From Escherichia virus TH57, in the sequence record MT446422.1: a stretch of DNA of 64,000 bases; one strand, written 5' to 3'. Below are positions 29,226 to 31,705 of this stretch, in pieces. Below the pieces are notes generated by a model. It made no database searches. It had not been told where the DNA came from and was given only the letters and a program-made list of their open reading frames with translations. Within the stretch, counting starts at the first letter, position 1. The number at the start of each line of letters is the position of its first letter. A program made the position numbers and the translations under genes.

Positions 29226-29805
<580 letters not shown>

Positions 29806-29861
29806 TGTACAAGCAGATTGAAATGAGTTATGATTATCCCATCAAACAAAAGGAGATAATC

Positions 29862-30320
29862 ATGACTACTATCGATTCAAGTGTTTACATTCGCCGCAAT
29901 AAACTTCGTCGCATTTTTGAAACGGAGTTCCTCAAAATTAATAATGCTATCAACAAGGCTTGTAAAGAAGCAGGTCTTGAAGCATTCTTCATTAAGTACA
30001 GTCCGCACCTGTTGGACCGTGCAATCCAACGTGAAATTGACGAACAATATGTTTTTGACTTGTTTGGAAAAATCACACCACATGTAAAAGAAATCGTTGA
30101 ATTCTTGGAGATGAAACCACTCCCGGAAGTTGAAGCACAAATTGACCCGAATGTGAACTACCGTCCACTTCGTCTGGAAATCACAGACAAGAACCTGTGG
30201 TTAGGAATGACAGTTAACCCCGCTATTCCTGGGAAGTCTCCAACCATGTGTTGCCGTATGGCGTTTGTTAACTCTAATCGTCTGGAAGGAAAAATTAGCA
30301 CAAAAGTGATTTATATCTAA
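29862..30320 (+). CDS. regB: RegB endoribonuclease
   Basis: ORF track 29805; ATG at 29862; YIRRNKLRR...KYSPHLLDRAIQREIDEQYVFDLF...YRPLRLEITDKNLWLG matches T4 RegB. Confidence 0.85.
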   Translation: MTTIDSSVYIRRNKLRRIFETEFLKINNAINKACKEAGLEAFFIKYSPHLLDRAIQREIDEQYVFDLFGKITPHVKEIVEFLEMKPLPEVEAQIDPNVNYRPLRLEITDKNLWLGMTVNPAIPGKSPTMCCRMAFVNSNRLEGKISTKVIYI

Positions 30321-30330
30321 TGGGGAATTC

Positions 30331-30873
30331 ATGAAAAAAGTAATCGCCACCTTACTATTGACAGTTAGTATGTCTGCCCATAGCGTAGAGCCTACTTTCA
30401 GTAATGAACAAATGGAGAATCTCCAATATGCTTATGCATTTGGAGAACAGTTCCAGAAAAATGGTAAGTACAAAGAAAATCCGCACCAACATAATGGTTT
30501 GGGATATATCATGGCTGGTTTAACCTGGCAGGAAAGTTCTGCTGGCGTTAATACAGGATTAAATAAAGATAAGCATCATGCATATGGTATATTCCAAAAT
30601 TATCTTCCAACCGTGCGCGAGCGCGTAAAACAGGTTGGGTGGACAATGACAGATAAAGAAATAATCAAGATGATAAGCAAGAGAGAGAACAGTGCACGCT
30701 GGGCTTATATTGAGCTTTCATACTGGTTGAATATTCATAAGGGGGATATAAGAAAAACGCTATCATCATATAACGCAGGGTGGAATGTGAAAGCTGGAAA
30801 TACGTATGCTTCACAGGTTCTAGAAAAAGCTAACTACTTAAAATCACGAGGCCTATTAAAAACGGTGGATTAA
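30331..30873 (+). CDS. secreted lytic transglycosylase-like protein (SLT-type motifs)
   Basis: Signal-peptide-like MKKVIATLLLTVSMSAHS; motifs QES...GIFQ...SYNAG resemble SLT ES/GLMQ/AYNAG. Confidence 0.5.
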   Translation: MKKVIATLLLTVSMSAHSVEPTFSNEQMENLQYAYAFGEQFQKNGKYKENPHQHNGLGYIMAGLTWQESSAGVNTGLNKDKHHAYGIFQNYLPTVRERVKQVGWTMTDKEIIKMISKRENSARWAYIELSYWLNIHKGDIRKTLSSYNAGWNVKAGNTYASQVLEKANYLKSRGLLKTVD

Positions 30874-30875
30874 AA

Positions 30876-31235
30876 ATGGTAAGAGTTATCACTTTAGCCA
30901 TAGGGTTAGTATTCAGCATGGGAGGAATAGCTTCAGTACAGAGCGACGACAACAACAGCATCGTAGAATATGCAACGAGGACGGCTAAAGATTATTGCGC
31001 ATCAAGCAATGTGGATTGTGTAATCCGGTTCAGTGCCAAGCTCACAGCAGCCTATAAAGATGGTCAAAATGATGTTGAACATACGCTTTTGAAAAAGAAT
31101 GTATTATCCAACAAATATGAAAAGAAATTATTTGAAATGGATTGCATTCTATCAAGTGCAAAATATAAAGCGGCCTGCACCAGTATGGTTGACAGGTTAG
31201 TGGATTCATATAATAGAGGATTGAACTCTAAATGA
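30876..31235 (+). CDS. secreted small cysteine-containing protein
   Basis: Signal-peptide-like MVRVITLAIGLVFSMGGIASVQS; coupled to the upstream gene. Confidence 0.5.
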   Translation: MVRVITLAIGLVFSMGGIASVQSDDNNSIVEYATRTAKDYCASSNVDCVIRFSAKLTAAYKDGQNDVEHTLLKKNVLSNKYEKKLFEMDCILSSAKYKAACTSMVDRLVDSYNRGLNSK

Positions 31236-31705
31236 TTACCCAGTATATTAAGGGCGATATCGTCGCCCTCTTTCTTCAAGGCAATATTATTGCGCATGGT
31301 TGCAACTGCTTTCACACAATGGGTTCTGGCGTAGCTGGACAGTTGGCGAAGGCTTATCCAAAAGTTTTAGAAATAGATAAAACCACTACTGAATATGGTT
31401 CTCGTAATAAATTAGGCGATATGTCTATCGTTTTTAAACATAATCCAACTGGATTTGGTATGTGCTATAATTTGTATACGCAATACGAACCAGGCCCTAA
31501 TCTTGATTATGGTGCTTTAGTAAATTGTATGATAGAATTAAATCTACAAGCAGAAACCCTTTTGTTTAAACCTGTAATTTATATTCCTCGTATTGGTTGT
31601 GGTATTGCAGGTGGAGATTGGGAAAAGGTTTCTAAATTAATCGACATGTTTACTCCTGACATTGATTTGATAGTGGTGGATTATGAGCCAAGTCCGAATT
31701 CTTAA
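31232..31705 (+). CDS. macro-domain protein, TARG1/OARD1-like (ADP-ribose processing)
   Basis: [22 protein letters not shown] and [16 protein letters not shown] align with recalled TARG1 motifs [22 protein letters not shown] and MPRIGCGLDRLQWENV. Confidence 0.6.
   Translation: [157 protein letters not shown]

What the first reader, a model, noticed from the sequence alone, without database searches (positions are those of the whole stretch)
30331..31235. Two coupled secreted proteins: an SLT-like lytic transglycosylase and a small cysteine-containing partner
Both ORFs begin with signal-peptide-like segments. The first has ES...GIFQ...SYNAG spacing reminiscent of family-1 lytic transglycosylases. 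The second is a 119 aa protein with four cysteines and starts 3 nt after the first ends. A periplasmic murein-active enzyme made early could act in superinfection exclusion or lysis timing, and the partner might be an inhibitor.
Basis: partly seen in the sequence, partly recalled or inferred. Interest (0 to 1): 0.5.

Follow-up and report, generated by a model that had tools for sequence, protein, structure and literature searches.

The report
Phage T4-type vs.1–vs exported gene pair
These two genes are this phage's versions of the T4 genes vs.1 and vs: a secreted cell-wall-cutting enzyme, and a small partner that looks exported even though databases label it a modifier of a cytoplasmic tRNA synthetase, a contradiction that can now be tested.

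Summary
ORFs 30331-30873 (180 aa) and 30876-31235 (119 aa) are real and abut with a 2-nt spacer. They are orthologues of T4 Vs.1 (66% identity) and Vs (45%), in the T4 gene order regB-vs.1-vs-tk.4-tk. The phage is a Gaprivervirus (VR7/SP18-like).

Vs is predicted to be a four-helix bundle. Across the family only four Cys and two Gly are invariant. All homologues keep a signal peptide, and the CC31-like ones have a lipobox. A Vs-like ORF starts within -7 to +8 nt of the vs.1 stop in 55 of 57 T4-like loci. This conflicts with its annotation as a "valyl-tRNA synthetase modifier".

Published T4 transposon data show that insertions in both vs and vs.1 are about 10-fold depleted in LB, and vs is the gene most depleted in minimal medium. 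That argues against a pure enzyme/antidote pair and favours a shared periplasmic function, or polarity of vs.1 insertions on vs.

The genes are known. The localisation paradox is the interesting part.

The parts
30331..30873 (+). vs.1 orthologue: 180-aa precursor of a secreted single-domain SLT/GH23-fold lytic transglycosylase-like protein (mature form about 162 aa, 18.7 kDa, pI 9.4)
   Evidence: (66% identity to T4 Vs.1)
30331..30384 (+). Predicted Sec signal peptide of Vs.1 (MKKVIATLLLTVSMSAHS | VE)
   Evidence: the n/h/c architecture is kept in 41 of 41 homologues although the sequence there diverges. The model has low pLDDT at residues 1-20. SignalP was not available.
30532..30537 (+). Codons for E68-S69, the predicted catalytic Glu-Ser motif (WQESS)
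   Evidence: E68 is invariant in alignments A3 and A5, including Felixounavirus homologues. The profile alignment to goose-type lysozymes places it on the E of their 'SRESRAG' segment, which I take from memory to be their catalytic Glu.
30864..30869 (+). Shine-Dalgarno-like GGTGGA for vs, inside the 3' end of vs.1 (translational coupling)
   Evidence: Read directly from the sequence. The junction is -7 to +8 nt in 55 related loci.
30876..31235 (+). vs orthologue: 119-aa precursor of a small four-helix-bundle protein with four invariant Cys (mature form about 99 aa, 11.1 kDa). It is annotated in databases as 'valyl-tRNA synthetase modifier'.
   Evidence: (45% identity to T4 Vs)
30876..30935 (+). 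Predicted Sec signal peptide of Vs (MVRVITLAIGLVFSMGGIAS | VQ)
   Evidence: kept in every full-length homologue (the N-terminally truncated P0114 lacks it). CC31-like homologues have a lipobox, LSGC, instead.
29805..30320 (+). Flanking gene regB (site-specific RNA endonuclease), which defines the T4-type synteny. It is not part of the module.
   Evidence: Pfam REGB_T4 at E=3.2e-72
31232..31705 (+). Flanking gene tk.4 (macro domain; T4 AdfM). Its start overlaps the vs stop (ATGA). It is not part of the module.
   Evidence: HIDEN-SEQ preprint

Best explanation
The two ORFs are the vs.1 and vs genes of a T4-like phage (genus Gaprivervirus), sitting in the conserved block regB-vs.1-vs-tk.4-tk.

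Shown:
- Vs.1 has a family-1 lytic transglycosylase (SLT/GH23, goose-lysozyme-like) fold, with an invariant Glu68-Ser motif and the GxxQ, YNxG and Y motifs.
- Vs.1 is preceded by a conserved cleavable Sec leader.
- Vs is predicted as a four-helix bundle. Its only invariant residues across the wide family are four Cys, placed at the two helix-hairpin turns, and two Gly.
- Vs is also preceded by a conserved Sec leader, which is a lipoprotein leader in CC31-like phages.

Inferred:
- Both proteins are made from one mRNA with coupled translation and are exported by Sec.
- Vs is oxidised to a disulfide-stapled bundle.
- The two act together in the periplasm of the infected cell. Vs.1 cleaves MurNAc-GlcNAc bonds, giving 1,6-anhydroMurNAc ends, with Glu68 as the single acid/base. 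Vs is a non-catalytic partner that tunes or directs this activity.
- This resembles the small 'specialised' transglycosylases of secretion systems, which depend on a partner. It does not resemble a toxin/antidote pair.
- The module contributes to phage fitness, most strongly on nutrient-poor hosts.

Open: whether this same polypeptide is also the classical ValRS-binding factor.
For: Identity and synteny:
-.

Vs.1 fold and motifs:
- AF2 model, pLDDT 85.9.
- Foldseek: the top nine hits are lytic transglycosylases or goose lysozyme, probability up to 0.99.
- 40 of 41 family members hit Pfam SLT.
- E68, G86, Q89, Y147, N148, G150 and Y159 are invariant down to 31% identity.
- The profile aligns E68 with the E of the goose-type lysozymes' 'SRESRAG' segment, which I take from memory to be their catalytic Glu.

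Export:
- The signal-peptide architecture is kept in all 41 Vs.1 homologues and in every full-length Vs homologue (the N-terminally truncated P0114 lacks it), while the sequence there drifts.
- CC31-type Vs has an LSGC lipobox.
- Only C41, C48, G63, C90, C101 and G115 are invariant in the broad Vs alignment.
- The pI of the Vs family ranges from 4.2 to 9.0.
- N-terminally His-tagged T4 Vs is insoluble (PMC8076793).

Linkage:
- A Vs-like ORF starts -7 to +8 nt from the vs.1 stop in 55 of 57 T4-like loci. These include Acinetobacter-type phages that lack regB, tk.4 and tk nearby.
- All 27 contigs found starting from Vs also carry Vs.1.
- In 24 loci a third secreted ORF follows Vs.

Shared phenotype in T4 (HIDEN-SEQ supplement, mean transposon-insertion read counts):
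- In LB liquid competition, vs 26.6 and vs.1 22.6, against regB 179, tk.4 290, vs.3 652 and vs.4 265.
- In M9, vs falls to 5.0 (log2FC -2.19, adjusted p 0) and vs.1 to 11.9 (log2FC -0.87, p 0.0055).
- The same pattern appears in two other data sets.
Against: - Classical work, recalled from memory and not retrievable here (Neidhardt & Earhart 1966; McClain et al. 1975; Mueller & Marchin 1977), assigns gene vs to a ~10-kDa factor that binds cytoplasmic ValRS and acts in vivo. Databases repeat this.
- No interaction between Vs and Vs.1 was tested. No co-fold was possible.
- Synteny is generally conserved in T4-like genomes: regB-vs.1 adjacency holds in 52 of 57 loci too. Adjacency alone is therefore weak evidence.
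- Vs.1-like proteins occur without Vs in Felixounavirus, in Ackermannviridae and in loci L054, L055 and L057.
- The signal peptides were judged by rule-based criteria, not by SignalP.
- Four Cys at one end of a bundle could instead bind zinc in the cytoplasm.
- The depletion of vs.1 insertions could be polarity on the translationally coupled vs.
- The window protein's own Pfam SLT score is below the gathering threshold.
Confidence: 0.45

Rival explanations
1. The annotation is right and the pairing is incidental. Vs is the cytoplasmic factor that binds host valyl-tRNA synthetase. Its hydrophobic N-terminus is not a working export signal, or only part of the protein is exported. Vs.1 is an unrelated periplasmic enzyme that happens to sit upstream in a conserved gene block.
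For: - Long-standing annotation, repeated in UniProt-derived text and in most GenBank records.
- The T4 vs knockout has a defect specifically in minimal medium, which the authors read as a translation or nutrient effect.
- T4-like synteny is conserved for functionally unrelated neighbours too.
- The predicted mature mass (11.1 kDa here) is close to the ~10 kDa recalled for the factor, and the window and T4-type proteins are basic.
Against: - Every full-length homologue keeps an n/h/c leader with a cleavage site, and the CC31-type has a lipobox.
- Only Cys and Gly are invariant, and the pI ranges from 4.2 to 9.0. That is odd for a ligand of a highly conserved enzyme.
- A ~10-kDa size fits the leader-cleaved form, and leader cleavage happens outside the cytoplasm.
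- vs.1 insertions share the fitness defect.
- The assignment of the genetic locus vs to this ORF could not be traced.
Confidence: 0.3
2. One reading: Vs is a periplasmic inhibitor (immunity-like protein) that holds the Vs.1 transglycosylase in check until lysis, like effector-immunity pairs of type VI secretion systems.
For: - The genes are adjacent and coupled, and both products are predicted to reach the same compartment.
- Vs is never seen without Vs.1, but Vs.1 is seen without Vs.
- Vs evolves much faster than Vs.1: 45% vs 66% identity to T4.
- vs loss is more harmful than vs.1 loss in M9.
Against: - vs.1 insertions are about 10-fold depleted in LB, like vs insertions. If Vs only neutralised Vs.1, losing Vs.1 should be neutral.
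- Vs has no fold or sequence similarity to Ivy, MliC/PliC, PliG, LprI, Spackle or Tsi proteins.
- In this window both mature proteins are basic.
Confidence: 0.12
3. Both proteins are periplasmic but work independently. For example, Vs might block lysozymes of superinfecting phages or host autolysins (Spackle-like), while Vs.1 remodels the wall.
For: - Both have export signals.
- The region holds several envelope or lysis-timing genes. RI lies about 1.7 kb downstream.
- Felixounavirus and Kuttervirus Vs.1-like genes lie near rIIA/rIIB, spanin or holin genes, without a Vs.
Against: - The junction is maintained in 55 of 57 loci, even where all other neighbours have changed.
- The two genes have similar fitness profiles in T4.
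- Vs has no structural match to Spackle.
Confidence: 0.13

Closest known systems
Bacteriophage T4 Vs.1 (NP_049725, PHROG 600)
   Same: - 66% identity over the full length.
- Same position between regB and vs.
- Same leader and motifs.
- A marginal SLT match was already reported for T4-type vs.1 (PMC1524935).
   Different: Nothing of substance; it is an orthologue. No biochemical function has been shown for any member.
Bacteriophage T4 Vs, 'valyl-tRNA synthetase modifier' (NP_049724, PHROG 1256, PF26829)
   Same: - 45% identity over the full length.
- The same four Cys.
- The same C-terminal SMVDRLVDSYNRGL motif.
- The same position.
   Different: The annotated cytoplasmic function does not fit the conserved export signal, the lipobox variants, or the Cys-only conservation seen here.
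Small 'specialised' family-1 lytic transglycosylases of secretion systems and plasmids (EtgA, MltE/EmtA-like cores; IagB, IpgF and P19 recalled from memory)
   Same: - Sec leader plus a single SLT domain of about 160 aa.
- The EtgA structure that was matched is a fusion with its partner EscI.
   Different: - Sequence identity is only about 15%.
- Vs.1 has an extra N-terminal helix (residues 25-38) and an invariant Glu128 of unknown role.
- It is encoded by a virulent phage, with no envelope-spanning machine known to need it.
Goose-type lysozyme (GH23 hydrolases)
   Same: - Best sequence-level PDB hits (E about 0.07), aligned across residues ~61-174, including the 'ES' and 'YNAG' segments.
   Different: I saw no conserved second acidic residue in the stretch after the catalytic Glu. 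This fits a single-carboxylate transglycosylase better than a hydrolase, based on knowledge of GH23. It was not tested.
T4 Spackle and bacterial lysozyme inhibitors (Ivy, MliC/PliC, PliG, LprI)
   Same: Small, exported, disulfide-containing periplasmic proteins that deal with muramidases. This is the same kind of role as the one proposed for Vs.
   Different: No fold match in the PDB (best Foldseek E 1.8). No Pfam match for any of 25 family members.

Membership tests
Family-1 lytic transglycosylase / SLT domain (Pfam PF01464, GH23) | Goose-lysozyme-like alpha-helical fold | tested here: met
Family-1 lytic transglycosylase / SLT domain (Pfam PF01464, GH23) | Catalytic Glu followed by Ser (motif I), plus G-x-x-Q, (A/S)-Y-N-x-G and Tyr motifs | tested here: met
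   E68-S69, G86-I-F-Q89, S146-Y-N-A-G150 and Y159 are present. E68, G86, Q89, Y147, N148, G150 and Y159 are invariant in 29 sequences down to 31% identity. The motif definitions come from my knowledge of the family.
Family-1 lytic transglycosylase / SLT domain (Pfam PF01464, GH23) | Score above Pfam's gathering threshold | tested here: inconclusive
   The window protein scores 14.7 bits against a 21.3-bit cutoff, E 0.024. But 40 of 41 family members match at E<=0.1, best 1.3e-7, and several carry a precomputed PF01464 hit.
Family-1 lytic transglycosylase / SLT domain (Pfam PF01464, GH23) | Non-hydrolytic cleavage that gives 1,6-anhydroMurNAc | not testable with these tools
   Needs an enzyme assay on sacculi.
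T4 Vs.1 family (PHROG 600) | Full-length homology and the position between regB and vs | tested here: met
   E=1.9e-67. 66% identity to T4 Vs.1. Synteny.
T4 Vs family (PHROG 1256 / PF26829) | Full-length homology, four conserved Cys, and the position after vs.1 | tested here: met
   E=2e-32. 45% identity to T4 Vs. PF26829 is precomputed on all 28 homologues. Cys conservation.
T4 Vs family (PHROG 1256 / PF26829) | Binds and modifies host valyl-tRNA synthetase | not testable with these tools
   Only the annotation and old literature support it. The sequence features point to export.
Sec-dependent cleavable signal peptide (both proteins) | Basic n-region, hydrophobic h-region of 7-15 residues, small residues at -3 and -1 | tested here: met
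   A rule-based scan found this in all 41 Vs.1 homologues and in every full-length Vs homologue; the N-terminally truncated P0114 lacks it. The models have low pLDDT in these segments. SignalP was not available.
Proteinaceous lysozyme/transglycosylase inhibitors (Ivy, MliC/PliC, PliG, LprI, Spackle, Tsi immunity proteins) | Fold or sequence similarity to a known inhibitor family | tested here: not met
   Foldseek of the Vs model against the PDB gave a best E of 1.8, and all hits were generic helical bundles. The PDB profile search found nothing relevant. Pfam found nothing for 25 members.
Enzyme/immunity (toxin-antidote-like) gene pair | Loss of the enzyme gene is neutral, while loss of the immunity gene is harmful | tested here: not met
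   T4 HIDEN-SEQ read counts for vs.1 are 22.6, 15.0 and 75.7, against about 180-650 for the neighbours regB, tk.4, vs.3 and vs.4. Polarity of vs.1 insertions on vs cannot be excluded.

The most novel reading that the evidence does not exclude
The protein labelled for decades as the T4 'valyl-tRNA synthetase modifier' may really be a Sec-exported, disulfide-stapled envelope protein, lipid-anchored in some phages. On this reading its job is to work with the secreted transglycosylase Vs.1. The ValRS-binding factor would then be encoded by another ORF of the region, or its association with ValRS would be secondary. The vs.1-vs module would be a phage-encoded peptidoglycan-remodelling unit that matters most in nutrient-poor hosts, which would explain why vs is the T4 gene most depleted in minimal medium.
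Probability: 0.3. Interest if true: 0.7.

Novelty: new member of a known kind. Interest (0 to 1): 0.45.

Why it matters
vs.1-like secreted transglycosylases occur in more than 2000 sequenced large virulent phages (T4-like, Vi1-like and FelixO1-like). None has a demonstrated role.

vs is one of the oldest named 'non-essential' T4 genes, and nobody knows why the phage keeps it. A 2025 transposon screen has now given it a clear phenotype.

If Vs acts in the periplasm with Vs.1, then a textbook annotation copied into hundreds of genomes is wrong or incomplete. It would also mean that phages remodel the host wall from within long before lysis.

A handful of simple experiments on existing mutants would settle this.

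Tried and rejected
- **Sequence searches of the PDB.** The Vs.1 profile gave nothing usable or only E~0.07 hits. The fold had to be shown with a model.
- **Vs similarity searches.** There was no PDB sequence hit and no fold hit. No Pfam family was found for any of 25 members, including LprI/DUF1311, which I suspected from memory.
- **Exhaustive profile search for Vs.** It found only 8 clusters, all phage except one. The exception is a 3694-aa repeat protein whose score is inflated by 17 repeats, which I judged spurious.
- **Locus search with the broad Vs alignment.** I used the narrower alignment instead.
- **Literature.** Miller 2003 and Mueller & Marchin 1975 are not held. I could not trace how the locus vs was assigned to this ORF. 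Other searches gave nothing on Vs localisation.
- **Transcription signals.** The sigma-70 promoter scan was not above chance. There is no MotA-box middle promoter upstream of vs.1; the nearest is inside tk.4 at 31513. Expression timing is therefore not established from this sequence.
- **Vs.1 as the endolysin (signal-arrest-release type).** I set this aside because the leader has a good cleavage site and T4-like phages have their own lysozyme gene e. It is not formally excluded.
- **Mirror-tree co-evolution test.** I did not run it, because linkage and shared phylogeny would confound it.

Full report
**What is there.** The window carries two abutting + strand ORFs exactly as described. ORF1 is 30331-30873 (180 aa) and ORF2 is 30876-31235 (119 aa). 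ORF1 ends with TAA at 30871-30873. Two bases later ORF2 starts, and a GGTGGA ribosome-binding sequence lies inside the end of ORF1. The ORF2 stop overlaps the next gene's start (ATGA at 31232-31235).

**Identity.**
- The region is 97% identical in DNA to Gaprivervirus phages (VR7, VR20, SP18, RZ and relatives). ORF1 is 100% identical to Vs.1 of phage VR7.
- Upstream lies regB (Pfam E=3.2e-72). Downstream lie a macro-domain gene and thymidine kinase. This is the T4 order regB-vs.1-vs-tk.4-...-tk.
- ORF1 is 66% identical to T4 Vs.1 and ORF2 is 45% identical to T4 Vs.
- The pair is therefore a known gene pair. A marginal SLT match for T4-type vs.1 was published in 2006, with reference to earlier PSI-BLAST results (PMC1524935). 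Some GenBank records already call it 'SLT domain-containing protein'.

**Vs.1 is a secreted SLT-fold protein.**
- On its own, the window protein is below Pfam's threshold for SLT (14.7 vs 21.3 bits). However, 40 of 41 family members hit SLT (best E 1.3e-7).
- An AlphaFold model built on 41 homologues is confident (pLDDT 85.9).
- E68, G86, Q89, Y147, N148, G150 and Y159 are invariant even when FelixO1-like homologues at 31-34% identity are included.
- A profile search aligns E68 with the E of the 'SRESRAG' segment of goose-type lysozymes, which from my knowledge is their catalytic Glu.
- I saw no conserved second carboxylate after the catalytic Glu. From what I know of GH23 enzymes, this fits a transglycosylase better than a hydrolase.
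- All 41 homologues keep a basic n-region, a hydrophobic core and a small-x-small cleavage site, while the leader sequence itself drifts.

**Vs looks exported too.**
- The model (pLDDT 78.6) is a four-helix bundle. C41 and C48 flank the first hairpin turn, and C90 and C101 flank the second.
- In a broad alignment that includes Klebsiella, Enterobacter, Pseudomonas and Acinetobacter phage homologues at 18-30% identity, only these four Cys and two Gly are invariant.
- Every full-length homologue has a Sec-type leader (the N-terminally truncated P0114 lacks it). The CC31-like ones have a canonical lipobox, LSG|C.
- The family is confined to T4-like phages: 8 clusters in 1.8 billion representatives.
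- It has no detectable relative among solved structures or Pfam families.
- Its pI ranges from 4.2 to 9.0.
- T4 Vs expressed with an N-terminal His tag was insoluble (PMC8076793).
- These are the marks of a fast-evolving, disulfide-stabilised envelope protein. They are hard to square with the database label 'valyl-tRNA synthetase modifier'.
- From my memory of the classical papers, that label rests on a ~10-kDa factor that binds cytoplasmic ValRS and acts in vivo. The leader-cleaved form would be 11.1 kDa here. I could not retrieve the papers that tied the genetic locus to this ORF.
- A cytoplasmic zinc site made of the four Cys is a formal alternative.

**Are the two linked?**
- In 57 T4-like loci found through Vs.1, 55 have a Vs-like ORF (signal peptide, four-Cys pattern) that starts -7 to +8 nt from the vs.1 stop.
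- This holds in Acinetobacter-type phages, where regB, tk.4 and tk are not nearby.
- Starting from Vs, all 27 contigs found also carry Vs.1.
- Vs.1-like genes do occur without Vs: in three T4-like loci, in Felixounavirus (right after rIIA/rIIB, with spanins 1.2 kb downstream) and in Kuttervirus (a holin 1.1 kb upstream).
- The dependence therefore runs one way. This argument has limits, because T4-like synteny is conserved in general. regB-vs.1 adjacency holds in 52 of 57 loci, and tight junctions are the rule in T4 early clusters.

**Functional data from T4.**
- A 2025 preprint (HIDEN-SEQ, doi 10.1101/2025.11.20.689424) found vs to be the T4 gene most depleted in M9-glucose compared with LB. 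It confirmed a plaque defect of a vs knockout on minimal medium.
- The supplementary tables give mean insertion read counts. In LB liquid competition, vs scores 26.6 and vs.1 scores 22.6. The flanking genes score 179 (regB), 290 (tk.4), 652 (vs.3) and 265 (vs.4).
- In M9, vs falls to 5.0 (log2FC -2.19, adjusted p 0) and vs.1 to 11.9 (log2FC -0.87, p 0.0055, adjusted p 0.16).
- The same low counts for both genes appear in the reference library and in another LB control.
- The two genes therefore share a specific fitness cost. If Vs only neutralised a dangerous Vs.1, insertions in vs.1 should be neutral, and they are not.
It favours either a joint positive function, or polarity of vs.1 insertions on the translationally coupled vs. 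regB insertions just upstream are not depleted, so general polarity seems low. That last point is an inference.

**Verdict.** The SLT and signal-peptide parts of the interpretation are supported. The inhibitor part is not supported. My best reading (confidence about 0.45) is a co-expressed periplasmic module: a secreted family-1 transglycosylase plus a non-catalytic, disulfide-stapled partner, comparable to the small specialised transglycosylases that depend on a partner protein. The main rival (about 0.3) is that Vs is the cytoplasmic ValRS modifier after all and the pairing is incidental.

**Novelty.** The genes themselves are known, so this is a new member of a known kind. The unresolved conflict between a 50-year-old functional label and a consistent export signature is worth a specialist's attention, especially alongside the new mutant phenotype. 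It can be tested directly with existing mutants.

Noticed in passing
window 31232-31705 (+): The gene after vs is a macro-domain protein, the tk.4 orthologue (Pfam Macro E=1.4e-8; NCBIfam DarG antitoxin E=9e-8). The HIDEN-SEQ preprint names T4 tk.4 AdfM, an anti-DarTG2 factor. This phage probably carries the same counter-defence gene.
   Followed up: partly
related loci, e.g. L035:4866-5267, L053:4842-5267, L014:4869-5303: In 24 related T4-like loci, those with the divergent type of Vs, a third ORF of about 130-150 aa follows Vs directly. It has a signal peptide, a conserved 'AWEKLPGYP'-like start and two Cys. This makes a three-gene block of exported proteins. No homologue exists in this window (tblastn).
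   Followed up: partly
L006:4541-4798 and L036:4549-4876: Vs is damaged in a few phages: an 85-aa internally deleted form (also P0117, phage vB_EcoM_005) and a frameshift-split form in a CC31-like contig. Vs.1 stays intact next to them.
   Followed up: no
L008, L011, L021, L022: There is a mosaic boundary between vs and tk.4. These loci have tk.4 at 90-94% identity to the window, but Vs at only 42-61% and Vs.1 at 66-77%. This indicates recombination right at the vs/tk.4 junction.
   Followed up: no
L110:3001-3549 (Salmonella phage GEC_vB_B1) and L111:2456-3073 (Salmonella phage Maynard): Vs.1-like secreted SLT proteins occur outside T4-like phages. In Felixounavirus the gene sits directly after rIIA-rIIB and 1.2 kb before the spanins, and is annotated 'lysin'. 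In Kuttervirus it sits 1.1 kb after an annotated holin. The Felixounavirus proteins carry two conserved Cys of their own and have no Vs partner.
   Followed up: partly
window 30331-30873, residue E128 (nt 30712-30714): A second glutamate (E128, in 'IELSYW') and W132 are invariant across the whole Vs.1 family, including the FelixO1-like members. Neither belongs to the classical SLT motifs I know, and their role is unexplained.
   Followed up: no
L002 (Yersinia phage vB_YenM_P8, PP693301) and many records: Annotation drift: Vs is often labelled 'valyl-tRNA synthetase', that is, the enzyme itself. In the P8 record several small neighbouring ORFs carry implausible names ('DNA ligase' for a 98-aa ORF, 'head assembly GroEL cochaperone', and a second 'valyl-tRNA synthetase modifier').
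   Followed up: no
window 31513-31538 (+): A MotA-box-type middle-promoter match (TGCTTTA, 13 nt, TAGAAT) lies inside tk.4, upstream of the small tk.x ORFs and tk. Twelve such matches occur in the window, against 5.1 expected by chance.
   Followed up: no
P0118: A 3694-aa protein made of about 17 near-identical repeats scored E=6.5e-11 against the Vs profile, only because the repeat scores add up. It looks like an assembly or eukaryotic repeat protein and is not a relative.
   Followed up: partly
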